From the UHGV virus genome UHGV-0140992: a DNA stretch of 40,633 bases. One strand, 5' to 3'. Made by a program: the position numbers and the translations under genes. Positions 4,944 through 34,255 of this stretch are shown piece after piece. This DNA is from a virus. Below the pieces are notes generated by a model, which worked only from the letters and a program-made list of their open reading frames with translations, ran no database searches and was not told the DNA's origin. The first letter of the stretch is position 1. Each line of letters starts with the position of its first letter.

Positions 4944-5236
4944 TCCTGTTCACTGGCCTCTTTGGCCATCTTCAAATACTGTTCAGGGCAATGCGCCATA
5001 ACGCGCTGAAACAGTTCCAGCGCCAGATTGCGTTGCCCCTCATTAAATGCCATTGCCATAGCATCCATCGGAGAGATAGCGGAAAACACCCGGCCTTTCT
5101 CCAGCACCGACCAGACAACGCGACGCCCCTGTTCACTGCTCATGACAAAGCGAATGTCATCAATTTCACGCTGTGCCATGTCACGTTGCTTACGGGCGTT
5201 TTCTTCTTTCAGTTGATCGTCTTCGAAATCTGTCAT
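4940..5236 (-). CDS. hypothetical small protein, 98 aa
   Basis: ORF track; overlaps portal stop and scaffold start (translational coupling). Confidence 0.4.
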   Translation of the reverse strand: MTDFEDDQLKEENARKQRDMAQREIDDIRFVMSSEQGRRVVWSVLEKGRVFSAISPMDAMAMAFNEGQRNLALELFQRVMAHCPEQYLKMAKEASEQE

Positions 5237-6912
5237 TGTGATTGCCCACCCTGACCACTAACTGCATTCGCCATAGCTGACAAAACACTCGGATCCGAAG
5301 TTTTAGCTTCGCTTAGCGTCTTGGCACCCTGTGCCGCCGCCATCCCCATCGCCATCATTTGTTGCTGCTGTTGTTGCTGTGCCCGTTGCTGGCGAGCCTG
5401 CTCAACCTGTTCCTGCGGAACAATGACGGTTGGAGACACTCCGGACATATCAGCGAATGCATCGATCGCCTGATCAACGTTGAGTTTGTCGAGAGCTTCT
5501 GGTTTCGCTTGCGCAAGTTGACCAATGAAGTTAACCGTGGACGCCAGACTGGACAGGCCGATAGACTTCTGCGCCTGAGCCATGACGGAAATGTATTCGA
5601 CCTTCAGGGGCATGCCTTCCATCGCGTCAGGCGGTGTCGGCAGCATGTTTTTACGCACCATCATCGAGAAAGCGCGGTCAATGAGAGGATTAAGACATTC
5701 GTCGTTCAGACGCTCCAGAACCGGCCCCAACATCAGAAGTTTTTCTTCTTTCATTTCGATCACCGCTTCAACAGGCATCGAGCGGGTATTGATGTTCTGC
5801 AACATCATGAACAGATCGACAAAGTAGGCGCTGTTAATGATTTGACGGGTGTCCTGAATGTCTGCCACCAAATCTGCTGTACTGGGGTTAACCAGATAAG
5901 CAGGCCTGAAACCATCCTGACCAGTAATCTGATCGATATACGTGATGTCGCCAGGAAGAAGGGAGGCACGCTGATTCTTGAGGGAAGTCGGAGCAACCAT
6001 CGGCGGATTGGTGGCTTTATCAATCAACTGCGACTTGCGCTTCTGGAGAAGCTGCAATGCCTTAACAGGTCCAAGCGCCAGCATACCCGGGCATGATGAT
6101 CCATAAACATCTTCGCCGTTAACTTCCCAGCGCGGAGCCATAATTGGAAACTCATCGAATCCGGACTCACGCAACAACTTGTCGTTATCGCCACCAACCT
6201 CGTAATAAACCGATTTGAATGGCTTGTTCTTGCTATCCAGCTTCGATGTATCGCGGTCAATGTTCGGGTAAACCGAATGCATCACTTCAATCCACTTCTC
6301 GTAGGTGCCGCTTTCCCACATGCTTTTTACGGATTCGCTGACGTTATTTAGCCCGAACTCCTGAACAAGCTGACGAACAGTCATAGAGAACTTGCGAAAA
6401 CAGGTGTCCACACTGCCACGAGGTGAGTTAGCCAGGTAGTAACTGCCTATCGGGAATGGCATTGTGCGAATGATGTCCTCGTCATCCTCCAGCACCGCCA
6501 TTGCACCAGTGCTGTATGTGCCGAGGCTTCCGTATAACTGCGGAAGAGACTGGTAGAGATTCGACTTATTGAACATATCGTTCATGCGGTTCTGAACTGC
6601 CTCAAGCCACAACTTAACAGGGCCATAGTCCATCATTTCAGGATCTGGCGTAGCCAGGCGAAACCACGGACGGGCGGGGCTTGTTATGCCTGACATCATG
6701 CCGCTGGCAAGAGTGCGCGCCGCCATAGTCCCGGTCGAATCAATAATGCGTGTATTGCGTCGATCGTTACGGTTAACCTCAGAAGTCAGAAAGCGGGAAC
6801 CACGCGGGTTGATGTAATCACTCAACTCGCGCCAGTGCGGCTCGAACGACTGACGCTCGCTTTCAAGTTGTGCGAACTGTTTGTTCAATCGCTCTTTAGT
6901 TGTTTCCGCCAT
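5233..6912 (-). CDS. portal (head-to-tail connector) protein, 559 aa
   Basis: downstream of terminase; Gln/Ala/Met-rich C-terminal tail resembles the T7 gp8 C-terminus; GGAG RBS upstream. Confidence 0.8.
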   Translation of the reverse strand: MAETTKERLNKQFAQLESERQSFEPHWRELSDYINPRGSRFLTSEVNRNDRRNTRIIDSTGTMAARTLASGMMSGITSPARPWFRLATPDPEMMDYGPVKLWLEAVQNRMNDMFNKSNLYQSLPQLYGSLGTYSTGAMAVLEDDEDIIRTMPFPIGSYYLANSPRGSVDTCFRKFSMTVRQLVQEFGLNNVSESVKSMWESGTYEKWIEVMHSVYPNIDRDTSKLDSKNKPFKSVYYEVGGDNDKLLRESGFDEFPIMAPRWEVNGEDVYGSSCPGMLALGPVKALQLLQKRKSQLIDKATNPPMVAPTSLKNQRASLLPGDITYIDQITGQDGFRPAYLVNPSTADLVADIQDTRQIINSAYFVDLFMMLQNINTRSMPVEAVIEMKEEKLLMLGPVLERLNDECLNPLIDRAFSMMVRKNMLPTPPDAMEGMPLKVEYISVMAQAQKSIGLSSLASTVNFIGQLAQAKPEALDKLNVDQAIDAFADMSGVSPTVIVPQEQVEQARQQRAQQQQQQQMMAMGMAAAQGAKTLSEAKTSDPSVLSAMANAVSGQGGQSQ

Positions 6913-7560: not shown

Positions 7561-7637
7561 GTGGCATTAGCTCAGTTGGACAGAGCAACCGCCTTCTAAG
7601 CGGTTGGTCGCAGGTTCGAATCCTGCATGCCACGCCA
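7561..7637 (+). tRNA. tRNA-Arg (anticodon TCT)
   Basis: cloverleaf folded by hand: acceptor GTGGCAT/ATGCCAC, D-arm GCTC..GAGC, anticodon stem ACCGC/GCGGT with loop CTTCTAA, T-arm GCAGG-TTCGAAT-CCTGC, discriminator G plus CCA; close to E. coli argU. Confidence 0.85.
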
Positions 7638-16718: not shown

Positions 16719-16781
16719 TCACCCATAAGGTAACAAAAATCAAGGATAGTTACCTATGAGGTGCATTTACCTGTTGGGTAA
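16719..16781. promoter_or_regulatory. OR-like operator cluster: TCACCCATAAGGTAA (16719), TTACCTATGAGGTGC (16750), TTACCTGTTGGGTAA (16767)
   Basis: three 15-bp inverted repeats at 31- and 17-bp spacing between divergent Cro-like and CI-like genes. Confidence 0.6.
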
Positions 16782-16836: not shown

Positions 16837-17421
16837 ATGAAAAGTATCCAGGACGTCCGCAGGCAAAATCTCAACGACTTGATCGACCGTGAATTCAATG
16901 GTGTTCAGACGCGGATGGCAGAAAAACTTGGAACTCAGGCAAATCTGGTAAACCGCTGGGCTCTTGGCAAGAAGGTTATCGGCGACCAGGTTGCACGAAA
17001 AATTGAAGCTGCCGCCAATAAACCCCGTAACTGGCTTGATATTGATCGTTCGCTTTCTCAGGAGGGTTTTCAGCCTGTCGGCCCGAGCGATATAGGTCAG
17101 CTGGCGGCTCACAACCTGGAACGCTGGATGAGCGAAAGCCGCGACCTTTCAACACAGGGAAAACTTCACCGCGCATCCGGCGTCGCCCAGGTGACAATCA
17201 GCCGCCTGTTAAACAATGAGGTCAGCGTTTCCATTTCCACCCTGGAGAATGTTGCATCCGCATTCGGGCGTCACGGATATGAACTACTGATTCACCCGCA
17301 CGACCCTGCGACTATCAACTATGACCGCTCACGCTACGCATTGTTACCCGAAACCGAGAAAGCAAAGATCGAAAGTTACATTGAATTTGTCATCAACCAG
17401 AACGAAAAAAGCAAACAATAA
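16837..17421 (+). CDS. CI-like immunity repressor, 194 aa, two HTH-like segments, no S24 peptidase domain
   Basis: divergent from the Cro-like gene across the operators; HTH-type N-terminus; no Ala-Gly / GDSM / Lys autocleavage motifs seen. Confidence 0.7.
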   Translation: MKSIQDVRRQNLNDLIDREFNGVQTRMAEKLGTQANLVNRWALGKKVIGDQVARKIEAAANKPRNWLDIDRSLSQEGFQPVGPSDIGQLAAHNLERWMSESRDLSTQGKLHRASGVAQVTISRLLNNEVSVSISTLENVASAFGRHGYELLIHPHDPATINYDRSRYALLPETEKAKIESYIEFVINQNEKSKQ

Positions 17422-18934: not shown

Positions 18935-19957
18935 ATGTCTATCAATGCACTTAAGGCAGCGGCTACCGGTAACCAAGTTGCACATCATAATGAGAAACCA
19001 ACAACTCTGGCCGGACTTCTGGCAGACCCAAAAATTAAAGCTCAGATGGCTTTGGCACTTCCAAAGCACATGACAGCAGACCGTCTGGCGCGCATAGCAA
19101 CCACAGAGATCAGAAAGGTTCCAAAACTTGCATCATGCGACCAAGCCAGCTTCCTGGGGGCAATTATGCAATGTGCCCAATTGGGTCTTGAACCAGGCGG
19201 AGCTCTTGGACACGCTTACCTGATACCGTTCGACAAACGCCAGAAAGTAAATGGAAGATGGGAAACCGTATCTACAGAAGCACAGCTGATTATCGGCTAT
19301 CGCGGAATGATTGACCTTGCCCGCCGCTCTGGGCAGATCCTGAGTATCTCGGCTCGTACCGTACATACAAACGACAAATTCAGCTACTCATACGGCCTGG
19401 AAGAAACGCTCGAGCATTTACCTTGCGAAACAGGTGACCGCGGAGAATTAACGCACGTTTACGCCGTTGCACGACTGAAAGATGGCGGAGTCCAATTTGA
19501 AGTTATGAGCCGGGCAGACGTTGAGAAAGTTCGTGCACTGAGCAAAGCCGGTAGCAGTGGCCCATGGGTTGATCACTTCGATGAGATGGCTAAAAAAACA
19601 GTAATTCGCCGACTGTTCAAATATCTTCCTGTTTCTATTGAAATGCAGAAGGCTGTTGTTATGGATGAGCGCGCTGAAGCTGGACTTAGCCAAGATAACG
19701 CAGCTGTTATCACTGGTGAATATTCCGTAGTTGACGATGAGCGTCAACACCTGTCGCCAATTTCAGATTCAGAACGAGAAGAAGCTCGAGAATATATCAT
19801 CGCGATACTTAATAGCCTGGATCCATCTGCTGAAGATGCAAAAACGATGTTCAAGCGCGCTGAAAATGAAATTAACACCATGGCTGAAAAGCTCGGTGAT
19901 GAATATCACCAAAAATTCATGATGACGCTTAACGATATGCGTCCAGAATTCGAGTAA
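18935..19957 (+). CDS. recT: RecT-family single-strand annealing protein, 340 aa
   Basis: RecT-like motifs (GLEPGGALGHAYLIPF); classic exonuclease-RecT pair. Confidence 0.85.
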   Translation: MSINALKAAATGNQVAHHNEKPTTLAGLLADPKIKAQMALALPKHMTADRLARIATTEIRKVPKLASCDQASFLGAIMQCAQLGLEPGGALGHAYLIPFDKRQKVNGRWETVSTEAQLIIGYRGMIDLARRSGQILSISARTVHTNDKFSYSYGLEETLEHLPCETGDRGELTHVYAVARLKDGGVQFEVMSRADVEKVRALSKAGSSGPWVDHFDEMAKKTVIRRLFKYLPVSIEMQKAVVMDERAEAGLSQDNAAVITGEYSVVDDERQHLSPISDSEREEAREYIIAILNSLDPSAEDAKTMFKRAENEINTMAEKLGDEYHQKFMMTLNDMRPEFE

Positions 19958-20006
19958 CCACCACCGCGGCGCCACGTGCGCCGCACTGCAACCAAGAGAG
20001 GTATTC

Positions 20007-20255
20007 ATGAAAGGTGCATTAGGTAAGAAAGAACTCCTGGCGGTGGTGCCACTGTCATGGAGCACTATCGACCGTATGGAGCGCGCAGGGGAATTTCCTA
20101 AACGCTGGTATATCACCGATAAACGCTGCGCATGGAACCGTGATGAAGTTGAGCGTTGGCTTGATGAACGTCAGGCAGCAAGCCCGGCAGAGTTCCAGGG
20201 TAAAAAGCCTCCTGTTCAGCAACGTGTATATCGTCCCGTGAGCAACGCTGCATGA
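20007..20255 (+). CDS. AlpA/excisionase-like small DNA-binding protein, 82 aa
   Basis: AlpA-type HTH (WSTIDRMERAGEFPKRWYI). Confidence 0.5.
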   Translation: MKGALGKKELLAVVPLSWSTIDRMERAGEFPKRWYITDKRCAWNRDEVERWLDERQAASPAEFQGKKPPVQQRVYRPVSNAA

Positions 20256-25149: not shown

Positions 25150-25178
25150 CCCGCAAAATATTGCGGGCTTTTTTTTAA
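25150..25178 (+). terminator. plus-strand intrinsic terminator abutting the tailspike stop
   Basis: cccgcaa-aata-ttgcggg followed by CTTTTTTTTAA; U-run only on the plus strand. Confidence 0.45.
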
Positions 25179-28100
25179 CGTTCTTCCAGAGACTGAATCC
25201 GCTCTTTTATCTTATCCATTTCTCTGCGCTGCCATGCTGCCTCGATATAGAATAAGAGATCAGGTCTGACCCCCCATCTAGATCCTGCTGGCGTTATTTC
25301 AACGCGCTCAATGATGTCTTCCATTACCATCACTGGATTATCATCCTCATCAACAATGATGCTCCCGTCATTATCAGTCAGCGGCATTTCCCTTTGGCCA
25401 GTAATGACGTCATCATATACTGCGGGATAATCGTCATAGCAAAGAAAGGCATAGCGGCATGTTGTGCTTTCTTCTTCCATGAGTCCGTGAGAAATAAGAA
25501 CATCACGAAGTTGCTGCGCGATTACACCATGATGTATCCTCGCCCCTTCTTCCCCCTTTATAGCGACAGCGTTCAGCCATTTATAAGCGATATACCTGAC
25601 GTCACCCCAGGCATCCAGCAATGCTTCGTCAGGAGAGACCGGCTCTGTCTTTAATGTTCCGTCACTGGTAACCACAGGATTGGAGCCAAGATAAACTGTC
25701 GAGAACCTGTTTCCCGGACCACCAAGAGCATTTACATTATCAAGATAAGGTTTAACATCTCCGTTCTCAAAAAGATGTTCGAGTGCGTTATATACCGCGC
25801 GACGTGGAGTACTGCTTCCGGAACCATGCAACGTTATCATTGCACCATCTGCTGAAGACGTTATTTCACCGCCGCTAACGATTAATCTCTGAGCGGTAAC
25901 ATCATCAGACGGTACTTTCTTCGCAATAATGGCGTAATTACCCTCAAGTTTGACTTCCGCGCGAACTTGTCCTGATGTACCTGCATGGACAGTCAGTGAC
26001 TGGACGGCAACATCATCTGTGAAATCAACGGGTACAGGAACCGTCCTCACGCCTGACGTCGACATAAAAGTAGGAAGCGTTCTGTTAGGAGTGGCTCCGT
26101 AGACAAAATCCCTTGAAACAAATTCTTCCTGTTTAATTTTCACCCTGAAACAATACAAATCAGCCGGGTGACCATCGTGAACATAAGGATATTTTCTGTT
26201 GTTATCCCCTATGCTCCATGGGTTTAGAAAGTCTTCCCCACCGAAAATGTAGTACAGCCAGTTGTCTTTGATACAAACTGAACCAACACCAACTGCAGAG
26301 TTAACTATTCCGCCCTGATAAATCTGATCAGTAACATTAACCCACTCTACATTATCCAGACTCCACTCATTGACGTTAACTCTGGTCATAAATGTTCTTG
26401 GATAATTTCCTGCATAACGGTTATCAGGTTCTCCTCCTTCCCACTCACCAAATGCGCGCTCACTGCCAAAAATAATCAGCTCATCGCCAACTTTGGCAAA
26501 AGGAAGGTTTGAGTGATGAACATTATTTGGGAAGCGAAGAGAATTCCATGATGTACCTAAATCAGAGCTTCTGTGCAATGAACTACCGGGTTGAGTACTT
26601 AATGTCCCCCTGGTCGTCAGATACAGAATGCCATCATAATATTTTACACATGGCTCAGATGCATTCGCCTCATATTCTGCAGGTATGCGTCTGCGAACAA
26701 AGCTACCAGGAGAACCGAAAGCATCAGAGAAATAGAGTATCCCAAGCTCGCGTGGACCAATATCACCATTATGGTAGCCAACAGCAAAACTGTTATCGCT
26801 AATCGTCGCAAAACTGTGAATCTCAGTAACAGGAGTGCTTCCGTCAACAAAAGAAGGAATAGTTCCAAGACTGGTTTTTCTCCATGGTGACGAGTGAAAT
26901 GATGTACCAAAACTCCAGTATCTACCCTCGTTATTCTGATCCACATCCTGGGTATTTTGCGTCGTAACTGTAAAAGTATTTTTATCAATAACAGTAGTCA
27001 CCGTCATATTCCCGGTAACACCTGTAACACCAGAGTTTGAGAAGTTGACAAAATCACCAGCAAATAATCCGTGATCAGTAATGCGAATATAAGCGACTTG
27101 CTGATTTGCTGCTTTCGTTATACCACCATAAGCGCGAAGGCTGCGACTCATTGGGCGATCCCACAACTCTGCAACCTGCAGTTTATTTCCGCTCACGGTC
27201 CGCGTCTCAATTACAGCAAAAAGGCGATTTCTGACAACCCCCATACTCATGCAGTGATAGTTAACTGTGGGATAGTTTTCATGTAAATCTGTAAGCCATT
27301 CCGGCGTTGTCCAGGTCTTCCCGTCATCTCCTGAGCGAACCCATGCAACATGGAGGTTATTTACACCATGGCGGTCTCCAGCCATAAAAGGCGCATAGAT
27401 GACATTGTCATATACAAACGTTTTATCCTGCGTCCAGGCGTTGTACCACGGTGTATCTGTAATTTTAAATAACTCTCCCTGGATAAAATCTTCAGAAGCA
27501 TAAAAAAGAGGCTGGCCCGGTATTCTCTCAAATAAAAAACGAGCATTTTTAAATCGACTGACATCCGGAAGAGTTGATACTTTAAAAGTAAGCCCTAATC
27601 CGTCAATTTTATAACCTGGAGATGAGGCTTCAAGGCACGCGCTTATTGCAGTGGAATCGTCATTTATACCATCACCAACAGCTCCAAAATCTTTGGGGCT
27701 AATAGCATCACGCATTTTATCCTGGAACGTTCGGTACACAGCCCCAGAACCATACTGAATAAACCAACCAAAACCACCAACAACCCCGGCGATTGCAGCA
27801 TCGACATAATTACGCATTGAGCGATTATTTACAGCGTCCTGCTCAAATGATGGATCTGCAAGGTTAGAAATTTTGTTTTGCTTTGCATCGTAATATTTTG
27901 CAAGCAAAGATGGTTTCATCAATGCACGTCTGAACCACCCAAAACATTGCTGGATCAGCATCGTCAGGTAGTCAAAGGCATCTTCATGCACTTCGGGGAA
28001 AAATTTTCCCTGATTGCGAAGGTCTGTCTCCTGCACTACATCAAGCACACGATCTATCGTAATTCGCCATCCAGTAGCAAGCGGAGACGGAAGAACCACA

Positions 28101-28294
28101 GAACCGCCACTATAAGTGCCCGCCCCAGTTACCGTATAACCGGTATCCAGAACCAATTCTGTTACGTTTCCGTTCAGGTCAGACACCTGAACAACCAGGT
28201 CTGATTTTCTGAAAATTCGAAAAGTATACGGAAACGATGTCGTAACGCCGTTACCGGTGTATTCGTTGTGGTCAACTTCGGTTGAGACCGTCAT
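25175..28294 (-). CDS. tailspike endo-N-acetylneuraminidase (K1 endosialidase) with C-terminal intramolecular chaperone domain, 1039 aa
   Basis: long blocks match recalled phage K1F endosialidase (FERIPGQPLFYASEDFIQGELFKITDTPWYNAW ... EWLTDLHENYPTVNYHCMSMGV); chaperone-domain motifs (LGSNPVVTS, TEPV, DAWGDV) near the C-terminus. Confidence 0.85.
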   Translation of the reverse strand: MTVSTEVDHNEYTGNGVTTSFPYTFRIFRKSDLVVQVSDLNGNVTELVLDTGYTVTGAGTYSGGSVVLPSPLATGWRITIDRVLDVVQETDLRNQGKFFPEVHEDAFDYLTMLIQQCFGWFRRALMKPSLLAKYYDAKQNKISNLADPSFEQDAVNNRSMRNYVDAAIAGVVGGFGWFIQYGSGAVYRTFQDKMRDAISPKDFGAVGDGINDDSTAISACLEASSPGYKIDGLGLTFKVSTLPDVSRFKNARFLFERIPGQPLFYASEDFIQGELFKITDTPWYNAWTQDKTFVYDNVIYAPFMAGDRHGVNNLHVAWVRSGDDGKTWTTPEWLTDLHENYPTVNYHCMSMGVVRNRLFAVIETRTVSGNKLQVAELWDRPMSRSLRAYGGITKAANQQVAYIRITDHGLFAGDFVNFSNSGVTGVTGNMTVTTVIDKNTFTVTTQNTQDVDQNNEGRYWSFGTSFHSSPWRKTSLGTIPSFVDGSTPVTEIHSFATISDNSFAVGYHNGDIGPRELGILYFSDAFGSPGSFVRRRIPAEYEANASEPCVKYYDGILYLTTRGTLSTQPGSSLHRSSDLGTSWNSLRFPNNVHHSNLPFAKVGDELIIFGSERAFGEWEGGEPDNRYAGNYPRTFMTRVNVNEWSLDNVEWVNVTDQIYQGGIVNSAVGVGSVCIKDNWLYYIFGGEDFLNPWSIGDNNRKYPYVHDGHPADLYCFRVKIKQEEFVSRDFVYGATPNRTLPTFMSTSGVRTVPVPVDFTDDVAVQSLTVHAGTSGQVRAEVKLEGNYAIIAKKVPSDDVTAQRLIVSGGEITSSADGAMITLHGSGSSTPRRAVYNALEHLFENGDVKPYLDNVNALGGPGNRFSTVYLGSNPVVTSDGTLKTEPVSPDEALLDAWGDVRYIAYKWLNAVAIKGEEGARIHHGVIAQQLRDVLISHGLMEEESTTCRYAFLCYDDYPAVYDDVITGQREMPLTDNDGSIIVDEDDNPVMVMEDIIERVEITPAGSRWGVRPDLLFYIEAAWQRREMDKIKERIQSLEER

Positions 28295-28398
28295 GTTAAA
28301 TCTCCAGATAGTCGCAGCACCCGTTGCGCCGCATATCTGGTTATTCTATTACCTGGAAAACCACATATGGATAGAAAGGATGTAAATACGAATAGATA

Positions 28399-28413
28399 TT
28401 ACCTTTCAGGTAA
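28399..28413. promoter_or_regulatory. operator-type site TTACCTTTCAGGTAA
   Basis: identical 15-mer to 7224; in the divergent region between tailspike and the LexA-box gene. Confidence 0.45.
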
Positions 28414-28450
28414 TTTGCAAAACGTGCTGGATAGCAAACAAATTATTTGA

Positions 28451-28470
28451 TACTGTATAAATATACAGTT
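28451..28470. promoter_or_regulatory. LexA (SOS) box TACTGTATAAATATACAGTT
   Basis: 18 of 20 match to consensus TACTGTATATATATACAGTA, intact CTGT-N8-ACAG, overlaps a TATAAAT -10-like element about 20 bp before the downstream ATG. Confidence 0.65.
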
Positions 28471-28489
28471 ATTGCATGGAGAAGATAAG

Positions 28490-28747
28490 ATGCAGCAGTA
28501 TCACTATCCACTGGAAGACGGATTTACCGAAAGGATTCACACGCCGGGAGGCGTCAGGTCACTGGTGGAGGGATCGCACTTGATGAAATTACTCCGGGAT
28601 CTCGATAAGGATGGATTTAATGTCGATGGCCCACTTGCCGAACTGACTGCACTGATTAACTACGTCACCAGCTCACAGATGTCTATGCAGGATCTGCAAA
28701 CACATCTCGACTATTGTGCCGAACAATTACGAAAACAAACCCGGTAA
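28490..28747 (+). CDS. small antirepressor-like protein, 85 aa (track 28472 is TTG; ATG at 28490)
   Basis: GGAGAAG RBS; LexA box and operator upstream; about 45 percent identical by eye to the C-terminal domain of the Bro-N protein at 29896..30606. Confidence 0.55.
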   Translation: MQQYHYPLEDGFTERIHTPGGVRSLVEGSHLMKLLRDLDKDGFNVDGPLAELTALINYVTSSQMSMQDLQTHLDYCAEQLRKQTR

Positions 28748-28769
28748 ATTTAAAGGCCGCAAGAGCGGC

Positions 28770-29498
28770 CTATCGTTTCGCTTTGTGCTCGTCCCAGCAC
28801 GTTTTGCACCATGCCATTAAGCCGTCCGCATTTTGATTATTAGGGTAAAAGCTGGTCCGTTTTCTGCGGACATTACAAATTGGGCACCACTTCATATGGC
28901 GTGTATTCTTTGGGCCATCGAGACACCTTGCACACCACTTAGTCAATCCATCTGGATTTTTTGACGATTTCCGGAATTTGTCATATGGAAGGTTTATTCT
29001 GCATCGCAAACACTGCTTGCGGCCACTTGAAACTCTGTTAGCTGATTCTTCTTTTGGCGGCGATACAGAAGGTATTCTTGCTGGCTCTGATACTGCCTGA
29101 GGTGCTTTTTTAGATGACTGAGACGATATGTCATCACCAGGGAATCTTCCATGATATGCCGGACGCATTGATACTCCAGGTGGAAGCTCAGCTGTAAACG
29201 GCTTTGGCTGAATCAGTTGCCTCTCTTTTGCTAACTCCTGCTGTTTACAATATGTCTGGATTACCGCACTATCATAAGCAGGAGGTGCGGAAATATTAGG
29301 CGCATTACCTCCAGTTTTTTGAAACTGAGTAGAGGTGTGTTCTATCACCTGTGTACGATTAATCGTTATCTCCCCATCTTCGGTCTTTATCGTTTTGTTA
29401 TGATTAACGACCGTACGATCAGAGATCTTAGTCTTGTTCTGGTTGATAACGTAAATAATCACCGCAACCACACCAACAACTATCCAGAAAACTTCCAT
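28770..29498 (-). CDS. membrane-anchored protein with duplicated CxxC zinc-ribbon module, 242 aa
   Basis: N-terminal TM helix; two copies of CxxC-x(20)-DGL-xx-WC-xx-C; GAGGAA RBS. Confidence 0.5.
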   Translation of the reverse strand: MEVFWIVVGVVAVIIYVINQNKTKISDRTVVNHNKTIKTEDGEITINRTQVIEHTSTQFQKTGGNAPNISAPPAYDSAVIQTYCKQQELAKERQLIQPKPFTAELPPGVSMRPAYHGRFPGDDISSQSSKKAPQAVSEPARIPSVSPPKEESANRVSSGRKQCLRCRINLPYDKFRKSSKNPDGLTKWCARCLDGPKNTRHMKWCPICNVRRKRTSFYPNNQNADGLMAWCKTCWDEHKAKR

Positions 29499-29518
29499 TG
29501 CTTTTCCTCACAATAACA

Positions 29519-29626
29519 TTACCTTAAAGGTAATATCTTGCTTTCAGGTGATCAAGCGTTAAACGCCACCAACCAAATACGGTTGATTTTGATATTTCTC
29601 CGCGTTTATCATTACCTTTGCGGTAA
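29519..29626. promoter_or_regulatory. operator-type sites TTACCTTAAAGGTAA (29519..29533) and TTACCTTTGCGGTAA (29612..29626)
   Basis: perfect half-sites between the divergent 242-aa gene and the Bro-N gene. Confidence 0.45.
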
Positions 29627-29639
29627 ATTTACATCGCAC

Positions 29640-29880
29640 TCCTCTTGTGCCATAGTAATCGGGCACTGGCAAAATCCAGTGCCGGGATTGGCGTCCCGGG
29701 TTACTAAGTGGCGCATACCACGCCAGACGTGGTTTTTTTATGCGTTAAGCACAGCTATATCCGAATTATGGTGGGCTGGGCAGGGGTCCGAAAGGACGCC
29801 GGTACCACTTAGGCCGGTACGCCAACCTTGTCCAGTTCACCACCAGTAATTGGCGTTGCGGTGGTGATTAAAATCACTAA
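29640..29880 (+). other. highly structured non-coding leader upstream of the Bro-N gene
   Basis: nested inverted repeats GGCACTGG-caaaat-CCAGTGCC and CCGGGA-ttggcg-TCCCGG; CCACG-ccaga-CGTGG followed by TTTTTTTA; direct repeat GCCGGTAC. Confidence 0.3.
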
Positions 29881-29895
29881 GTGGAGATAACCACC

Positions 29896-30606
29896 ATGGC
29901 TAATGCTCAAACTTCCATCTTCAAATTTGAATCTGTTAACCCTATCCGTTCCATCATTATCGATGGCCAACCATGGTTTGTAGCCCAAGACGTTTGTAGT
30001 GCGCTGCGTATCCAAAACGTCACCCAAGCACTTGAAAAACTGGATGATGATGAAAGGTCTATGTTCAACATAGGGCATGAACATCGTGCAATTTTTGACA
30101 GCCGAGTAAAAGAGATCAACATCATCTCCGAGTCAGGCCTCTACACACTGATCCTCCGCTGCCGCGACGCAGTGACACCAGGCACTATCCCCTACCGCTT
30201 TCGTAAATGGGTTACGGGTGAGGTTCTTCCTCAGATCCGCCGCACCGGAAGCTACATTAAAAACTCGCTCCCGCAGGAAGAACGCATAAAGATGGTTGCC
30301 GACCAGGTGGCCAACGCCACGGCGTCAGCAGTAATGCAGGCGATGAAGATAGAGAACAAAACCTACAGCGCCCCACTGAATCCCGGCTACCGCAGCCTGA
30401 TTCATTCGCCGTCTGGTGTTCTCGGCCTGACGGAGAACTCACTGCTGATGAATCTGCTGAACCAGTTACAGGACGACGGGCACGACGTATCGGGCGCGGC
30501 GGCGGAGCTGACCACCATGTTCTGCTACATCGTCGGTGTGAGCAAATGCCTGCGTGATATCCAGACCCACGCGGAATACATCAACGACAAGGCAGGGTTC
30601 TTCTGA
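29896..30606 (+). CDS. Bro-N domain antirepressor-like protein, 236 aa (ATG at 29896)
   Basis: N-terminal Bro-N-type motifs (FKFESVNPIRSIIIDGQPWFVAQDVCSAL); C-terminal domain paralogous to the 28490 gene. Confidence 0.65.
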   Translation: MANAQTSIFKFESVNPIRSIIIDGQPWFVAQDVCSALRIQNVTQALEKLDDDERSMFNIGHEHRAIFDSRVKEINIISESGLYTLILRCRDAVTPGTIPYRFRKWVTGEVLPQIRRTGSYIKNSLPQEERIKMVADQVANATASAVMQAMKIENKTYSAPLNPGYRSLIHSPSGVLGLTENSLLMNLLNQLQDDGHDVSGAAAELTTMFCYIVGVSKCLRDIQTHAEYINDKAGFF

Positions 30607-30613
30607 CGGGCGG

Positions 30614-30640
30614 TGGCACAGGGATGTGCCTTTAAATAAT
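30614..30640 (+). terminator. weak intrinsic terminator after the Bro-N gene
   Basis: ggcaca-ggga-tgtgcc followed by TTTAAATAATT. Confidence 0.3.
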
Positions 30641-30678
30641 TCTGTACAGATTGCAGACTGTGGGTGAATAGCGTACTA

Positions 30679-30693
30679 TTACCTTAAAGGTAA
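30679..30693. promoter_or_regulatory. operator-type site TTACCTTAAAGGTAA
   Basis: identical to 29519; immediately before AGGAGG and the ATG at 30706. Confidence 0.45.
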
Positions 30694-30705
30694 AGGAGGC
30701 GCGAT

Positions 30706-30873
30706 ATGACAGCGTTGAAAAATCGTACTCAGCACAATGAACAAGCCAAGCAATGCTGGGATGTCATTGGAAAAGTTATGCTTGGCCGCGCAAGCAAAGA
30801 GCGCGACAAGGATATGGTTTACCAGACAGGAACATCTTTCAGCGACTTCAAGGCGGCATTTCGCTCCAAATAG
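30706..30873 (+). CDS. possible small protein, 55 aa (MTALKNRTQHNEQAKQCWDVIGKVMLGRASK...)
   Basis: AGGAGG RBS 6 nt upstream; operator directly upstream; below the ORF-track cutoff. Confidence 0.4.
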   Translation: MTALKNRTQHNEQAKQCWDVIGKVMLGRASKERDKDMVYQTGTSFSDFKAAFRSK

Positions 30874-30893
30874 AAGCACATCAGGAGTTTTCC

Positions 30894-31334
30894 TTGAAGT
30901 TTAACATTAGAATATCTAATAGTTTTCTACATGGGGAAAGCAACACCCCTTTCGCTGTAGACGGACCTTTCCTTACTGATGATGAAATAAAAATCATACA
31001 AAGTTTTTTAGAGGATGTTGCCAATGGAAGGGCGCTTGTTGGAAAAAACAAGCCCTCGTGGGTTGATGATAACCATGATAAAATTCCCGGCTCAGACAAT
31101 TATGAGCAAGAGAATTATTGGCATTATCATTGTGGGCCAACATGGTATCCAAACACATTTAAGAATTATACCATTAACTTAAATTTCAACCCTGGCGGAA
31201 GGCATTCTAATGAATGCATTCATTATGCAAAAAATGATAATGAAATTGTCATTGTTGGATTTTCAAGAGAACACATACCTTTCCTTTCATCAGATGGAAA
31301 CAACAATCCGCTTTTTAATGATGAAGAAGAATAG
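30894..31334 (+). CDS. hypothetical AT-rich moron protein, about 146 aa (TTG start; track ORF begins 30753)
   Basis: AGGAG RBS 7 nt before in-frame TTG; markedly AT-rich codons versus flanks; acidic C-terminus. Confidence 0.4.
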   Translation: MKFNIRISNSFLHGESNTPFAVDGPFLTDDEIKIIQSFLEDVANGRALVGKNKPSWVDDNHDKIPGSDNYEQENYWHYHCGPTWYPNTFKNYTINLNFNPGGRHSNECIHYAKNDNEIVIVGFSREHIPFLSSDGNNNPLFNDEEE

Positions 31335-31426
31335 CCCGCGCTGCGGGCTTTTTTGTGGACGAAACAAAAGTCAGTGCTACACTCATTGACGCCACATTGA
31401 GGTGGCTTATAGATGGAAATTTCACA

Positions 31427-31588
31427 ATGAAAAAAGCATTTGCTGCACTGTTCGTTTTGTTGTCTCTGGTAGCTTCAACTCAGGCCTTTGCCGGTCGTTG
31501 TCAGCACGACAGCGACACTGCTGCTGACGGCTCCCGCTGCGGTGGGCGTTCTGCGGACTCCCGTCCGGGCGGCGGTGGCATTCGTTAA
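31427..31588 (+). CDS. small secreted Gly/Cys-containing peptide, 53-aa precursor with signal peptide
   Basis: MKKAFAALFVLLSLVASTQAFA signal-like N-terminus with AFA-G cleavage context; 31-aa Gly/Asp/Arg-rich mature part with two Cys. Confidence 0.35.
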   Translation: MKKAFAALFVLLSLVASTQAFAGRCQHDSDTAADGSRCGGRSADSRPGGGGIR

Positions 31589-31780: not shown

Positions 31781-34255
31781 TTATTGCGGAGTGACATCCT
31801 GTGGTCGCCACCAGTATGTCTGGTTAAACTCTTTCTTCGAACGTTGCTCCATTTTACGCAAATAACCTGGTGAAAAATACTCCTGCATCTGGTTAAAGAT
31901 CATGTGATCGAGAGCCGCCTTCAAGTACCAGAGATTCGCACCTGGCATCAGACCTTTCCCCAGCTTAACCAGATCACCACCAGTCTGCTCACTCTTCCCT
32001 TCCACAGCATTTAACGGTATGCCCTGAGCAATCTTCACTACGTCATCAACCAGACCAGCTACCGGGCCAAGCATCGACGCCAGCGCGCCGCTTCCGTACC
32101 TAGTGTGATCTGACAATAAAAAGTCACCGTAAAGGCCAAGACCACCACCTTTCAGTAGAGCACCAAGCCAAAATTTAGCAGCATCTTCTCCTGTCATCTC
32201 GCGAGGATTACGACCAGACGCAAGGTCGTTAAGTTGCTGCGACAAAGCGCCAAGAATGGTCGTACTGGCAATAAACGTCGCAATATATGCCGCACGCCCA
32301 CCAGCAGACGGCATACCCATAGCGCGTGACCAGTGACGCATAACCACCGAGATAGGGAACGATTTAAACAGGAAAACACTTCTCGTTAATTCACCTTTCC
32401 ATGTTCCACGCTGAATACCAGAACCGGTTATCAGTTGCTCACGTGCTCCCGGTGTAATAACAGCCATATCAACTTCTTCAGTTACGGCACCGAGCAGTTT
32501 ACGCATTGCCTCAAATTTCACGCGTTCAGGCTCACCAAGATGTTTAACTGCTGAATCAGGGATACGCATAATGCTTTCCGGTGTCAGCATCGTATTATTA
32601 CCGTTCCCCCAGTCCTCCTGTTTCGCCAGCTTCCATACGCTCCAGTCTGTGTCAGTAATCCCTTTGCTTTTCAGGATACGAAAATCAGAGTCATCGAGGC
32701 TACGAAGGTCTGGTGTACGTGACACTACTTCTCCCAGGCTTCCCATCATGGTTACGCCATAGGCGCGCTTGTGCGCATCTGACCATGCTGTAAGCCCACT
32801 GGCACGCATTACCGCCGTTGCCGCCCAACGAGACACTGACGGCCCCATATTATCCATCGCCCAGCGGTTAACGCTGCCAAGTAGAGATTCCATCGCCAGA
32901 CCAGCGCGGCGCGCCCGCGCAAGTTCTGTACGGTTCGTTGGGTCCATAGCTTCAAGCTGGTTGCGGAATAACTGGTTCATTGGAAGGTTGGTAACCTTCG
33001 CAGACAGATACATGGTTCCAAGATCAGAGAACGATGACAGCAACGCGGATCCGAGTCTGCTGGCAACCAGCCAGTTGCGGATATTGTCAGACCATCGCGC
33101 GATGTGCGGATTCGCTACAGGCTGTGTCTTTCCGGAAATAAAGTTGTACAGATTCTCTGTGTTGTTCGCCAGCCGCTCGACTTTACCGGTTTTACTCGGG
33201 TTAGCTGTTGCCGTTTCTGCCTTCACCTGATCAAGAAGAGAGCGGAAAACATGATCGGGGTTTGGGCCATATGTTTCCACCAGTGCAATATCTTTACTGA
33301 TACCTTCCAGGTGACCGACCATGATTTCCCATAGAGAGCGATCGCCATAAAGTTGCTGATATTGCAGATAGGAATCTGCATCTTTGAAATGTATCTGTCG
33401 TGATGCATTACCACGGTTAGCACGTGCGCCGGAAATTCGCATTCCGGTATCAGTAAGCTTATTCAGCCCACCAGTAGCGATCGTGTTATAAGCCTCTCCA
33501 AGAAATGAAGACAACTCGGCATCGTTCATCAGTTGTCCATCGGCTCGGATATAATATTTGCGATCCAGCTTACCTATAACATCGCTAACCCACTTATCCT
33601 TTGATACTGCCCCAACCTTTTCCATAGAATGATGTTGAGGGATCCCCCAGTTTTCGAGATAGCCAATGTCCCCACCAGCATCATTAAACCGGCGGCGCAG
33701 CAGCTCTGTAACTTCTCTCCACGCCTTAGCACCGTTTCTTGCTTTAGCATTGCCAGTATTTTGCCCCCGCATTTCATATACCAGGTCACGTACGCCCGCT
33801 TCATCTTCAAACAGACCAAAAAAGCGAGGATCAACTGCTTCGAATGCCTCCTGCAATTGACTCAATGCATAATCACGGGTGGCTTTTGTTCTGGATTCAA
33901 CAGAGAGGAAATTAGATTTACCGTCTGCATTAAAAGCTATAGTACGGTTAAGAGCGCCAAGTTTCCCATCAGCCCCTTGATAGCTATTGATAAATTTATC
34001 CAATCTCTGACGCGCGGCTATAGTGAGAGCCACACGACGTTTCTTTAATGCCGCTTCTCGCTGTAATTCTTCAGATGCCAATTGTGCTGCTCGATATAGC
34101 CGCTCTGATTCGGAAAGTTGTCTCCACGACATCGGGTCATCACGAGCAATGGAGCGCATATTTCGATAAATGCGGTCTTCAATGTTCTGTATTTCTCGCG
34201 CCGTTAACGTGCGCTGCGCCGCCTGCTGGACCGCTTGTATACATTCCTGTCTCAT
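31781..34255 (-). CDS. internal virion / ejection protein, 824 aa
   Basis: large co-oriented protein in the gp14-gp16-equivalent block after the tail tube genes. Confidence 0.55.
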   Translation of the reverse strand: MRQECIQAVQQAAQRTLTAREIQNIEDRIYRNMRSIARDDPMSWRQLSESERLYRAAQLASEELQREAALKKRRVALTIAARQRLDKFINSYQGADGKLGALNRTIAFNADGKSNFLSVESRTKATRDYALSQLQEAFEAVDPRFFGLFEDEAGVRDLVYEMRGQNTGNAKARNGAKAWREVTELLRRRFNDAGGDIGYLENWGIPQHHSMEKVGAVSKDKWVSDVIGKLDRKYYIRADGQLMNDAELSSFLGEAYNTIATGGLNKLTDTGMRISGARANRGNASRQIHFKDADSYLQYQQLYGDRSLWEIMVGHLEGISKDIALVETYGPNPDHVFRSLLDQVKAETATANPSKTGKVERLANNTENLYNFISGKTQPVANPHIARWSDNIRNWLVASRLGSALLSSFSDLGTMYLSAKVTNLPMNQLFRNQLEAMDPTNRTELARARRAGLAMESLLGSVNRWAMDNMGPSVSRWAATAVMRASGLTAWSDAHKRAYGVTMMGSLGEVVSRTPDLRSLDDSDFRILKSKGITDTDWSVWKLAKQEDWGNGNNTMLTPESIMRIPDSAVKHLGEPERVKFEAMRKLLGAVTEEVDMAVITPGAREQLITGSGIQRGTWKGELTRSVFLFKSFPISVVMRHWSRAMGMPSAGGRAAYIATFIASTTILGALSQQLNDLASGRNPREMTGEDAAKFWLGALLKGGGLGLYGDFLLSDHTRYGSGALASMLGPVAGLVDDVVKIAQGIPLNAVEGKSEQTGGDLVKLGKGLMPGANLWYLKAALDHMIFNQMQEYFSPGYLRKMEQRSKKEFNQTYWWRPQDVTPQ

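What the first reader, a model, noticed from the sequence alone, without database searches (positions are those of the whole stretch)
28490..30606. Same roughly 75-aa domain occurs free-standing (LexA-controlled) and fused to a Bro-N domain
Residues around LMKLLRDLDKDGFNVDGPLAELTALINYV...DLQTHLDY in the 85-aa protein align with LMNLLNQLQDDGHDVSGAAAELTTMFCYI...DIQTHAEY at the C-terminus of the Bro-N protein (about 45 percent identity by eye). This suggests a shared repressor-binding or effector module deployed under two different controls.
Basis: seen in the sequence. Interest (0 to 1): 0.55.

Follow-up and report, generated by a model that had tools for sequence, protein, structure and literature searches.

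The report
One antirepressor domain, two control circuits
A temperate E. coli phage carries the same small repressor-inactivating domain twice, once as a free DNA-damage-controlled protein and once fused to a Bro-N domain behind a small-RNA switch; every component is a known type, so this is a tidy but not surprising piece of phage regulation.

Summary
The 85-aa protein (28490-28747) and the C-terminal ~80 residues of the Bro-N protein (29896-30606) align at 42% identity over 74 residues (E 3e-15). The Smith-Waterman score is 158, against 27±4.5 for 5000 shuffles.

The window is an epsilon15/phiV10-like (Uetakevirus) temperate phage. The 85-aa protein is the SPC32H-type antirepressor Ant (88% identical; PDB 5D50, solved bound to its repressor Rep). 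It has an 18/20 SOS box 22 bp upstream. The 194-aa repressor is the Rep homologue.

The Bro-N protein's C-terminus hits the same PDB chain (E 3e-13). Its gene sits behind an isrK + C4 antisense-RNA cassette of the P1/N15 immI and Gifsy-1 isrK-anrP type. The two C4 loop elements are complementary to sites in isrK and over the gene's ribosome-binding site, and they co-vary across eight phages. A repressor-operator-like palindrome abuts each promoter.

A nearly identical fusion, ZX5 ORF4, lowers lysogeny when overexpressed. Sibling phage TL-2011b has a third copy, fused to a P22-Ant N-domain beside Arc and sar RNA.

The finding is a new member of a known kind, of moderate interest. Binding of the fused domain to Rep is inferred, not shown.

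The parts
28399..28413 (.). TTACCTTTCAGGTAA palindrome, putative Rep operator, 77 bp upstream of the ant ATG
   Evidence: TTACC-N5-GGTAA (at most 1 mismatch) occurs 14 times in the window against 0.76 expected. It flanks rep on both sides here and in SPC32H, and lies 77 bp upstream of ant in SPC32H too. It is invariant in a 6-phage alignment of the ant upstream region. Its role as an operator is inferred.
28451..28470 (+). SOS (LexA) box TACTGTATAAATATACAGTT, 18/20 to consensus, in front of ant
   Evidence: The core CTGT-N8-ACAG lies at 28453-28468. It is conserved in relatives including SPC32H. LexA control of SPC32H ant is reported in Kim & Ryu 2013, as cited in PMC7380047.
28490..28747 (+). 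ant: free-standing 85-aa antirepressor (SPC32H Ant orthologue)
   Evidence: phmmer against PDB 5D50_E gives E 4e-47 and 88% identity. It matches phrog_450 at 9e-48. There is no Pfam or NCBIfam family for it.
28754..28771 (.). G+C-rich hairpin that ends ant (and the convergent 242-aa gene)
   Evidence: Terminator-like hit on the minus strand; the sequence AGGCCGCTCTTGCGGCCT is visible.
29612..29626 (.). TTACCTTTGCGGTAA palindrome abutting the -35 of the isrK promoter (putative Rep operator); a second copy lies at 29519-29533
   Evidence: A copy sits about 48-51 nt upstream of isrK in five of the six genome loci that have the cassette, the same distance as here; the sixth has no exact match near isrK.
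29628..29656 (+). Promoter-like site TTTACA-17-CATAGT (with TG) that would start transcription at isrK
   Evidence: isrK begins at 29663. This is a consensus match only.
29663..29739 (+). isrK-type sRNA with target elements a1 TTGGCGT (29688-29694) and b1 CTAAGTGG (29704-29711) and its own terminator (29717-29739)
   Evidence: Rfam RF01394, 67.7 bits (gathering 50). Element positions; terminator.
29764..29847 (+). C4-type antisense RNA with loop elements b' CCACTTAG (29805-29812) and a' ACGCCAA (29819-29825)
   Evidence: Rfam RF01695, 66 bits (gathering 45). Complementarity.
29850..29886 (+). Leader of the fused gene: a2 TTGGCGT (29850-29856) and b2 CTAAGTGG (29877-29884), the latter overlapping the Shine-Dalgarno GGAG (29883-29886)
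   Evidence: a'/a1/a2 and b'/b1/b2 co-vary together in 8 phages.
29896..30606 (+). Bro-N::Ant fusion, 236 aa. Bro-N domain at about nt 29944-30231, linker, Ant-like C-terminal domain at about nt 30358-30591
   Evidence: Pfam Bro-N, 71.4 bits. The C-terminus hits 5D50_E at E 3e-13 and phrog_450 at 5e-36 for the whole protein, 5.5e-37 for the C-terminal domain alone. ZX5 ORF4 is 81% identical overall and nearly identical from residue ~72 to the end.
16837..17421 (+). rep: 194-aa prophage repressor, the presumed common target
   Evidence: 5D50_A Rep, E 3.5e-42. It is 99-100% identical in phiV10, ZX5 and TL-2011b. It is flanked by TTACC-N5-GGTAA pairs at 16719/16767 and 17479/17541.

Best explanation
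The window is a phiV10/epsilon15-like temperate phage whose non-cleavable repressor Rep is switched off by antirepressors. It encodes the Rep-binding Ant domain twice.

Copy 1 is the free 85-aa Ant. Its promoter carries an SOS box. DNA damage leads to LexA cleavage, Ant synthesis, Rep inactivation and induction, as shown experimentally for SPC32H.

Copy 2 is the C-terminal domain of a Bro-N protein. Its gene lies behind an immI-type RNA switch. Transcripts from the isrK promoter mostly stop at the isrK terminator. Read-through produces the C4 RNA followed by the fusion mRNA. The two C4 loop elements (a', b') pair with a2 and b2, and b2 covers the ribosome-binding site, so translation is blocked. 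isrK carries decoy copies a1 and b1, so it can titrate C4 and open translation, as IsrK does for anrP in Gifsy-1.

A Rep-operator-like palindrome abuts the -35 of the isrK promoter. The cassette is therefore probably also silenced by Rep and reinforced once Rep falls.

What is shown: the homology, the SOS box, both RNAs, the complementarity and its co-variation, and antirepressor activity of a near-identical fusion. What is inferred: that the fused domain binds this Rep, that the palindrome is the Rep operator, the direction of the isrK effect, and any role of Bro-N.
For: - **Homology.** (E 3e-15, z 29; 5D50 Ant and Rep; same helix pattern; 15 invariant columns, many of them polar: Y, H, D, E, T, H).
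- **SOS control.**. The literature is cited.
- **RNA control.** Rfam isrK and C4 above gathering score. The same pair lies directly upstream of the fusion gene in 6 phages and 6 bacterial genomes, and upstream of N15 immA. It is absent from SPC32H, which lacks the fusion. Three-way co-variation of a'/a1/a2 and b'/b1/b2 across 8 phages, with b2 next to or over the SD each time. The IsrK mechanism in Gifsy-1 is described in PMC4825925.
- **Function.** ZX5 ORF4 differs from this protein by 2 residues over the last ~165. Its Rep is 99.5% identical. Its overexpression drops lysogens from 1e9 to 1e6 and rep mRNA by 75%.
- **The C-terminal domain follows Rep and the N-domain does not.** In TL-2011b, with Rep 99% identical, the linker is 100% and the C-terminal domain 97.7% identical, while Bro-N is only 65% identical and the RNA b allele is different.
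- **Domain shuffling.** The domain is also found fused to AntA, Phage_pRha, ORF6N and P22_AR_N N-domains. In the phage collection it occurs only in genomes that also encode a Rep homologue.
Against: - No binding data exist for the fused domain. It is only 42% identical to the cognate Ant, so it could have a different partner or keep only the oligomerisation function.
- I could not obtain the Rep-contact residues of 5D50, so conservation of the interface is untested.
- A Foldseek search of the AF2 model against the PDB did not recover 5D50_E. The model is a low-confidence monomer and the result is inconclusive.
- Identity of Ant and of the C-terminal domain does not track identity of the Rep N-terminal domain cleanly: SPC32H has Rep-NTD 52% but Ant 88%.
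- The fusion is dispensable. It is absent from Salmonella relatives and is frameshifted in phiV10.
- The ant promoter itself did not reach the consensus-scan threshold.
- The ZX5 experiment used overexpression only.
Confidence: 0.7

Rival explanations
1. The fused domain is a true Ant paralogue but acts on another partner. It might inactivate Rep-type repressors of related co-resident or resident prophages (cross-talk or an anti-immunity weapon). Alternatively it might serve only as the tetramerisation scaffold that brings four Bro-N domains together, with Bro-N doing the real work on DNA.
For: The fused domain is only 42% identical to the cognate Ant. Free Ant is almost invariant (98-100%) among E. 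coli relatives, and the two subfamilies form separate clades. Antirepressors acting on non-cognate repressors are documented in Salmonella (PMC3121763). SPC32H Ant is a tetramer. About 10% of complete E. coli genomes carry such prophages, so encounters are likely.
Against: ZX5 ORF4, with the same C-terminal domain, acts on ZX5 itself, whose Rep is 99.5% identical to this one. The C-terminal domain stays 94-100% identical wherever Rep is the same, while the Bro-N half is exchanged. Polar residues conserved across both subfamilies argue for more than a hydrophobic scaffold. Five unrelated N-domains carry the same C-domain, which fits the C-domain being the specific business end.
Confidence: 0.2
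2. The Bro-N::Ant cassette is an inert or decaying hitch-hiker in this phage (a moron-like insertion with no role in its switch). The duplication is then only a trace of recombination.
For: The cassette is absent from SPC32H, epsilon15 and SPN1S. The gene is split by a frameshift in phiV10 and appears in two pieces in Phi05 records. The region between the tailspike and injection genes is a hot spot of accessory genes.
Against: The ORF is intact here and in most relatives. The RNA elements are maintained and co-vary. The order ant-isrK-C4-fusion is conserved across six genera. Overexpression in ZX5 has a phenotype.
Confidence: 0.08
3. The similarity is chance or compositional.
For: None beyond the short length of the domain.
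Against: z is about 29 against shuffles and E is 3e-15. Both independently hit the same PDB chain and the same PHROG.
Confidence: 0.01

Closest known systems
Salmonella phage SPC32H Ant-Rep antirepression system (Kim & Ryu 2013; Kim et al. 2016; PDB 5D50, 5D4Z)
   Same: It has the same genus-level genome layout. Free Ant is 88% identical. A Rep homologue is present. The SOS box and the TTACC-N5-GGTAA site sit at the same distances upstream of ant.
   Different: SPC32H has only the free Ant. It has no isrK/C4 cassette and no Bro-N fusion. Rep here is only 43% identical overall and 52% in the N-terminal domain.
Phage-plasmid N15: immA operon (icd-antA-antB behind a processed C4/CI-like RNA) plus the LexA-controlled antC
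   Same: It has two antirepressor circuits, one SOS-driven and one RNA-gated. isrK and C4 lie upstream of immA with matching a/b elements. AntB (gp30) is a Bro-N protein 43-52% identical to the Bro-N half here. AntC is a paralogue of AntA (SW 70 against 24±4.5, 0 of 5000 shuffles reach it). So N15 too has the same small module under both controls.
   Different: In N15 the small antirepressor and the Bro-N protein are separate adjacent genes, and an icd gene precedes them. Here they are one polypeptide in the order Bro-N then Ant, and there is no icd. The N15 modules are unrelated in sequence to SPC32H Ant, and the repressor CB is LexA/CI-like.
Gifsy-1 isrK-orf45-anrP locus plus the LexA-controlled GfoA (Hershko-Shalev 2016; Lemire 2011)
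   Same: It has an isrK sRNA followed by a C4-like region and an antirepressor gene with a KilA-N-like N-domain. A separate small SOS antirepressor sits elsewhere in the prophage.
   Different: The AnrP N-domain is ORF6N, not Bro-N. AnrP shows no similarity to the GfoA candidate (z 1.9), so Gifsy-1 has no shared module. Translation there is coupled through orf45, whereas here b2 sits directly on the SD of the antirepressor gene and I found no convincing leader ORF.
P1/P7 immI (c4-icd-ant1/2) and P4 CI RNA
   Same: The logic is a C4-family antisense RNA with two loop elements that pair with repeated targets flanking it, one of them over a ribosome-binding site. Allelic a/b specificities occur, and the repressor has an operator at the immI promoter. 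The P1 details are from my own knowledge of the literature.
   Different: The repressor family and the antirepressor C-terminal domain are different, and there is no icd.
Escherichia phage vB_EcoP_ZX5 ORF4 'anti-repressor' (Li et al. 2022, PMC9782041)
   Same: It is the orthologous gene, 81% identical overall and nearly identical from residue ~72 on. The Rep is the same. It has been tested experimentally by overexpression.
   Different: The first ~70 residues of Bro-N differ. The paper does not mention SPC32H (0 text occurrences) and names only ORF4 as antirepressor; the passages I read say nothing about the C-terminal domain's identity, and the small ant gene is 'hypothetical protein' in the record.
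P22 immI Ant, and TL-2011b gp42
   Same: TL-2011b, a sibling phage, has a P22_AR_N-domain protein ending in the same Ant-like domain (90.7% identical). It lies next to an Arc-like gene and a sar RNA.
   Different: That third copy is not present in this window. P22 Ant itself ends in a different C-terminal domain (own knowledge).

Membership tests
SPC32H-type Ant antirepressor family (PDB 5D50 chain E; phrog_450) | Significant sequence homology to SPC32H Ant over the whole ~85-residue domain | tested here: met
   The free protein scores E 4e-47 over residues 2-84. The fused domain scores E 3e-13 over residues 160-236 against chain residues 3-79. Both hit phrog_450.
SPC32H-type Ant antirepressor family (PDB 5D50 chain E; phrog_450) | A cognate Rep-type (two-HTH, non-cleavable) repressor in the same genome | tested here: met
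   Rep at 16837-17421 hits 5D50_A at E 3.5e-42. Phage records with the domain (35) are matched by those with Rep (37), and the host genera coincide.
SPC32H-type Ant antirepressor family (PDB 5D50 chain E; phrog_450) | A free-standing small protein expressed from a LexA-controlled promoter | tested here: met
   This is met for the 85-aa gene (SOS box 18/20). It is not met for the fused copy, which has no SOS box and carries an N-terminal Bro-N domain.
SPC32H-type Ant antirepressor family (PDB 5D50 chain E; phrog_450) | Direct binding to Rep and disassembly of the Rep tetramer | not testable with these tools
   Only indirect evidence is available: the ZX5 ORF4 overexpression phenotype. The Foldseek search of the monomer model was uninformative.
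Bro-N domain proteins (Pfam PF02498) | Score above the Pfam gathering threshold | tested here: met
   71.4 bits against a cut-off of 25.6, residues 22-117 of the 241-aa ORF.
immI-type RNA-gated antirepressor cassette (P1 c4-icd-ant, N15 immA, Gifsy-1 isrK-anrP) | A C4-family antisense RNA and an isrK/seqA-like RNA directly upstream of the antirepressor gene | tested here: met
   RF01695 at 66 bits and RF01394 at 67.7 bits, both above gathering score. The same arrangement occurs in 12 related loci and in N15.
immI-type RNA-gated antirepressor cassette (P1 c4-icd-ant, N15 immA, Gifsy-1 isrK-anrP) | Two C4 loop elements complementary to repeated targets, one set covering a ribosome-binding site, with co-variation | tested here: met
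   a' ACGCCAA pairs with TTGGCGT twice. b' CCACTTAG pairs with CTAAGTGG twice, and b2 overlaps the SD. Four b alleles and three a alleles among the Uetakevirus-like phages, plus distinct N15 alleles, co-vary in all three positions, with two single mismatches.
immI-type RNA-gated antirepressor cassette (P1 c4-icd-ant, N15 immA, Gifsy-1 isrK-anrP) | A leader ORF (icd / orf45) translationally coupled to the antirepressor gene | tested here: not met
   Only mechanical GTG/TTG ORFs of 20-34 aa overlap the RNAs, and there is no icd homologue. The 'ash family' ORF annotated over C4 in ZX5 has no Pfam support. Here the target b2 lies on the SD of the antirepressor gene itself.
SOS regulon genes | A LexA box close to consensus overlapping the promoter | tested here: met
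   TACTGTATAAATATACAGTT matches 18/20 and is conserved in relatives. LexA binding itself was not tested. No promoter reached the consensus-scan threshold.

The most novel reading that the evidence does not exclude
Phages with non-cleavable repressors may build a multi-input OR gate for induction. They would copy one repressor-binding module and wire each copy to a different sensor: LexA for DNA damage, an isrK/C4 RNA switch (itself under repressor control) for physiological or superinfection signals, and Arc/sar in some siblings. The interchangeable KilA-N-like N-domains (Bro-N, AntA, Rha, ORF6N, P22_AR_N) would add a second, still unknown activity. The independent AntA/AntC paralogy in N15 would make this a convergent design rule rather than a one-off. 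The free and fused copies in one phage are a natural experiment for what Bro-N contributes.
Probability: 0.35. Interest if true: 0.55.

Novelty: new member of a known kind. Interest (0 to 1): 0.35.

Why it matters
- **Annotation.** The result links three bodies of work that annotation keeps apart: the structurally solved SPC32H Ant-Rep pair, the Bro-N 'antirepressors' of unknown mechanism, and the isrK/C4 RNA switches. About 10% of complete E. coli genomes carry this ant gene labelled 'hypothetical protein', and a similar number have at least part of the isrK-C4-fusion cassette, whose gene is labelled only 'BRO-N domain-containing protein'. Both could be named.
- **Mechanism.** The C-terminal domain of these Bro-N proteins now has a concrete, testable job: binding Rep. 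The phage provides a matched pair, the same domain with and without Bro-N against the same repressor. This allows the long-open question of what Bro-N domains do in antirepressors to be tested directly.
- **Host biology.** A second, SOS-independent route to induction matters for K1-capsule ExPEC/APEC prophages, since the tailspike here is an endosialidase.

Tried and rejected
- **Foldseek search of the AF2 model of the C-terminal domain against the PDB.** There was no hit with E <= 0.001 and 5D50_E was not recovered. The model is an extended helical monomer (pLDDT 74), whereas Ant is a tetramer in the crystal. I treat this as inconclusive, not negative.
- **Co-variation of Ant and the C-terminal domain with the Rep N-terminal domain across phages.** There were too few lineages and the trend was not clean: SPC32H has Rep-NTD 52% but Ant 88%, and Klebsiella has 52% but 58%.
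- **Generalising to Gifsy-1.** AnrP against the GfoA candidate shows no similarity (z 1.9). N15 does generalise.
- **The search for related loci with the full family alignment.** A sub-alignment gave 7 genome loci.
- **Primary papers on SPC32H and on N15 AntC.** Kim & Ryu 2013, Kim et al. 2016 and Mardanov & Ravin 2007 are not held. The Rep-contact residues, the published operator sequence, and whether the AntA/AntC paralogy was already noted could therefore not be checked.
- **Family libraries.** Pfam and NCBIfam have no family for the Ant domain. The weak DUF724 hit (E 0.004, below cut-off) was dismissed.
- **A leader ORF like icd or orf45.** None was convincing.
- **A third copy in the window.** None was found.
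Full report
**1. What the window is**

Megablast of 28300-31400 finds phiV10, TL-2011b, ZX5, HEMP4 and other E. coli podophages of the genus Uetakevirus (epsilon15-like). The 40.6-kb window is about one such genome.

The finding lies in the variable region between the tailspike (25175-28294, minus strand) and the large virion/injection protein (31781-34255, minus strand). The tailspike is an endosialidase by Pfam. In Salmonella phage SPC32H this same interval holds only the gene ant.

**2. The observation**

- The 85-aa ORF (28490-28747) and the Bro-N ORF align without gaps over 74 residues at 42% identity, E 3e-15.
- The Smith-Waterman score is 158. Shuffles give 27±4.5 with a maximum of 61 in 5000, so z is about 29.
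- A six-frame search of the window finds only these two copies.
- Independent AlphaFold2 models show the same four helices at aligned positions.
- A 16-sequence alignment of both subfamilies has 15 invariant columns: Y4, H17, P19, G21, L25, S29, L35, D41, G42, V45, A50, E51, Y58, T71, H72.

The fused gene most likely starts at ATG 29896, giving 236 aa. GGAG lies 9 nt upstream, and relatives align on the same ATG.

**3. What the domain is**

The 85-aa protein is 88% identical to the 'Anti-repressor protein' chain of PDB 5D50 (E 4e-47). That chain is Ant of SPC32H, crystallised with its repressor Rep. The Bro-N protein's residues 160-236 hit the same chain at E 3e-13. The window's 194-aa repressor (16837-17421) hits the Rep chain at E 3.5e-42.

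The literature I could read says the following:
- Induction of SPC32H-type prophages works through a LexA-controlled Ant that inhibits the repressor by protein-protein contact (review PMC7380047).

Pfam and NCBIfam have no model for this domain. PHROGs puts both copies in phrog_450, labelled 'unknown function'.

**4. Control of the free copy**

TACTGTATAAATATACAGTT (28451-28470) matches the E. coli SOS-box consensus at 18 of 20 positions. It lies 22 bp before the ATG. The box is conserved in phiV10, Tyrion and SPC32H, with a one-base variant (ATGT core) in two Klebsiella phages. An upstream palindrome TTACC-N5-GGTAA is also conserved in all of them.

**5. Control of the fused copy**

Rfam finds isrK (29663-29739, 67.7 bits) and a C4 antisense RNA (29764-29847, 66 bits) immediately upstream.

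C4 carries two elements: b' CCACTTAG (29805-29812) and a' ACGCCAA (29819-29825). Their complements occur twice each:
- a1 at 29688-29694 and b1 at 29704-29711, both inside isrK.
- a2 at 29850-29856 and b2 at 29877-29884, in the leader. b2 overlaps the Shine-Dalgarno sequence.

The isrK-C4 pair precedes the fusion gene in TL-2011b, phiV10, Tyrion and three Klebsiella phages. It also does so in six bacterial genomes from other genera (Erwinia, Citrobacter, Scandinavium, Superficieibacter, Klebsiella, Kluyvera). It precedes the N15 immA operon. It is absent from SPC32H.

The recognition elements co-vary in all three places:

| Phage | b' | a' |
|---|---|---|
| window | CCACTTAG | ACGCCAA |
| TL-2011b, phiV10 | CCTTTTAG | ACGCCAA |
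| Tyrion, ST512 | CCTTTGTAG | AGACCAA |
| Kp4865-1 | CCTTTGTAG | GTCTCAA |
| ST11 | CCGTTTAG | ACGCCAA |
| N15 | CTTCTTGT | GTTGAGA |

Each element has exact complements in isrK and in the leader. Two single mismatches are the only exceptions. This is the P1/P7 c4 logic (own knowledge). It is also the arrangement dissected in Gifsy-1. There, most transcripts end at the isrK terminator. Read-through mRNA is translationally silent, and IsrK in trans opens it (PMC4825925).

A promoter-like site TTTACA-17-CATAGT ends 7 nt before isrK.

**6. The palindrome**

TTACC-N5-GGTAA (allowing one mismatch) occurs 14 times in the window against 0.76 expected, and 18 times in SPC32H.
- In both phages it brackets rep on both sides.
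- In both it lies 77 bp upstream of the ant ATG.
- A copy abuts the -35 of the isrK promoter, starting 51 nt before isrK here and at about the same distance in five of the six genome loci that have the cassette.
- The Rep helix NLVNRW is conserved among Reps that are otherwise 52% identical in the N-terminal domain.

I infer that this is the Rep operator and that both antirepressor promoters are also under Rep. This is not shown.

**7. Does the fused domain act on this Rep?**

Evidence for:
- ZX5 ORF4 is the orthologue. It differs from the window's protein by two conservative substitutions over the last ~165 residues, and ZX5 Rep is 99.5% identical. Overexpressing ORF4 reduced lysogens about 1000-fold and rep mRNA by 75% (PMC9782041). 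That paper names only ORF4 as antirepressor and never mentions SPC32H, and the small ant gene is 'hypothetical protein' in the ZX5 record.
- Where Rep is the same (TL-2011b, phiV10), the linker and C-terminal domain are 94-100% identical. The Bro-N half is only 65% identical and the RNA b allele differs. The C-terminal domain therefore travels with Rep, while the N-domain and RNA specificity are exchangeable.
- A HMMER profile search of 1.84 billion cluster representatives finds only 64 at E <= 0.001. They are either free (~85 aa) or C-terminal to Bro-N, AntA, Phage_pRha or ORF6N domains.
- TL-2011b gp42 adds a P22_AR_N fusion (90.7% identical C-terminal domain) beside an Arc-like gene and a sar RNA. 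That is a third control regime in a sibling phage.
- One database protein (P0017) is a chimera of the Ant N-half and the fused-type C-half.

Evidence against or missing:
- There is no binding experiment.
- I could not examine the interface residues.
- Foldseek was uninformative.
- Co-variation with Rep was not clean.
- The fusion is absent or broken in some relatives.

**8. A parallel in N15**

N15 is known to have an RNA-gated immA operon (icd, antA, antB) and a separate SOS-controlled antC (PMC4488713). I found the following:
- The SOS box lies at 39564, followed by a 75-aa ORF (AntC).
- That ORF is a paralogue of gp31/AntA. The SW score is 70 against 24±4.5, and none of 5000 shuffles reaches it.
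- gp30/AntB is a Bro-N protein 43-52% identical to the Bro-N half here.

N15 therefore also places one small module under both controls. In N15 the module and the Bro-N protein are neighbouring genes; here they are fused. This is a Rosetta-stone hint that the two work together. Gifsy-1 does not follow the rule. I could not check whether the AntA/AntC paralogy has been published.

**9. Verdict**

All components belong to known kinds:
- the SPC32H Ant/Rep pair;
- Bro-N-type modular antirepressors;
- C4/isrK immI switches;
- SOS boxes.

An orthologue has been tested experimentally. What I did not find in the literature I could read is the link between them. The 'Bro-N antirepressor' of phiV10-like phages ends in the structurally solved Ant domain. 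The phage therefore holds the same repressor-binding module under an SOS input and under an RNA-gated input that is probably also Rep-controlled.

About 529 of 5426 complete E. coli genomes carry this ant, and 475 carry at least part of the cassette. They are annotated 'hypothetical protein' and 'BRO-N domain-containing protein'.

I file the finding as a new member of a known kind, of moderate interest. It is mainly useful for annotation and as a clean system for asking what Bro-N adds.

Noticed in passing
window 7224, 10329, 10347, 14418, 14480, 16719, 16767, 17479, 17541, 22796, 28399, 29519, 29612, 30679 (each 15 bp): The palindrome TTACC-N5-GGTAA occurs 14 times against 0.76 expected. Copies sit in pairs around rep and in front of many transcription units, and the same motif and geometry occur in SPC32H. 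It is probably the Rep operator. If so, Rep silences much more than the early operons, including both antirepressor promoters.
   Followed up: partly
window 28770-29498 (-): A 242-aa protein with an N-terminal membrane helix and two C-terminal Zn-ribbon motifs (Stc1 / endonuclease VII-like, phrog_6762) is inserted between ant and isrK. In most relatives ant is followed directly by isrK.
   Followed up: no
window 30679-31334 (+): This is a two-gene cassette. The first gene is a 55-aa ORF (30706-30873, strong SD overlapped by a TTACCTTAAAGGTAA palindrome). The second is a 146-aa ORF most likely starting at TTG 30894. The TL-2011b homologue is annotated as a YafO-family toxin, but Pfam and NCBIfam give no hit here. 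It is a possible toxin-antitoxin or defence moron.
   Followed up: partly
window 31355-31588 (+): A 77-aa ORF has a signal-peptide-like start (MKKAFAALFVLLSLVASTQAFAG) and a Gly/Arg-rich tail. It matches a PHROG labelled 'membrane associated protein' (moron) and is bracketed by hairpin terminators.
   Followed up: no
window 25175-28294 (-): The tailspike is a complete endosialidase (End_N_terminal, beta-propeller, beta-barrel, tail-spike and S74 chaperone domains). The phage should therefore target K1-capsulated E. coli. The closest chromosomal copies are in ExPEC/APEC strains such as IHE3034 and APEC O18.
   Followed up: partly
L001 (TL-2011b) 4967-6151 (-) and 5913-5980: The sibling phage TL-2011b has a third copy of the Ant-like domain (90.7% identical). 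It is fused to a P22_AR_N domain (gp42) and lies next to an Arc-like repressor and an Rfam sar RNA. This is a P22-type immI with its C-terminal domain replaced. HEMP4 also shows three places.
   Followed up: yes
L006 (N15) 3565-3830 and L002 3856-4086: The SOS-controlled antirepressor AntC of N15 (a 75-aa ORF after the LexA box at N15 39564) is a significant paralogue of AntA/gp31 in the RNA-gated immA operon (z 10, 0/5000 shuffles). I could not check whether this has been published.
   Followed up: partly
L005 (phiV10) 19551-20230: In phiV10 the Bro-N::Ant gene is split by a frameshift inside the Ant-like domain (p23 + p22). In the Phi05 records the match is in two pieces. The fusion is evidently dispensable in some lineages.
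   Followed up: partly
window 29837-29844 / 29860-29867 and 29768-29774 / 29891-29897: There are two further complementarities. The 3' arm of the long C4 stem (TCACCACC) can pair with GGTGGTGA in the leader. The 5' arm (ATGGTGG) can pair with CCACCAT, which spans the start codon of the fused gene. These suggest alternative cis structures like structures A and B described for Gifsy-1.
   Followed up: no
window 28343-28372: A block, ATTCTATTACC...AACC..ATATG.AT, between the tailspike start and the ant operator is invariant in six phages from three host genera. It may be a promoter or activator site for the divergent tailspike gene.
   Followed up: no
protein P0017 (84 aa, metagenome): This free-standing protein has an N-half of Ant type and a C-half of the fused type (DGHDVSGAAAELTTM...SKCLREIETH). 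It is evidence of recombination between the two paralogues.
   Followed up: no
window 7561-7634 (+): A tRNA gene (Rfam 73 bits) lies at the position where SPC32H and phiV10 also carry one (annotated tRNA-Arg in SPC32H).
   Followed up: no
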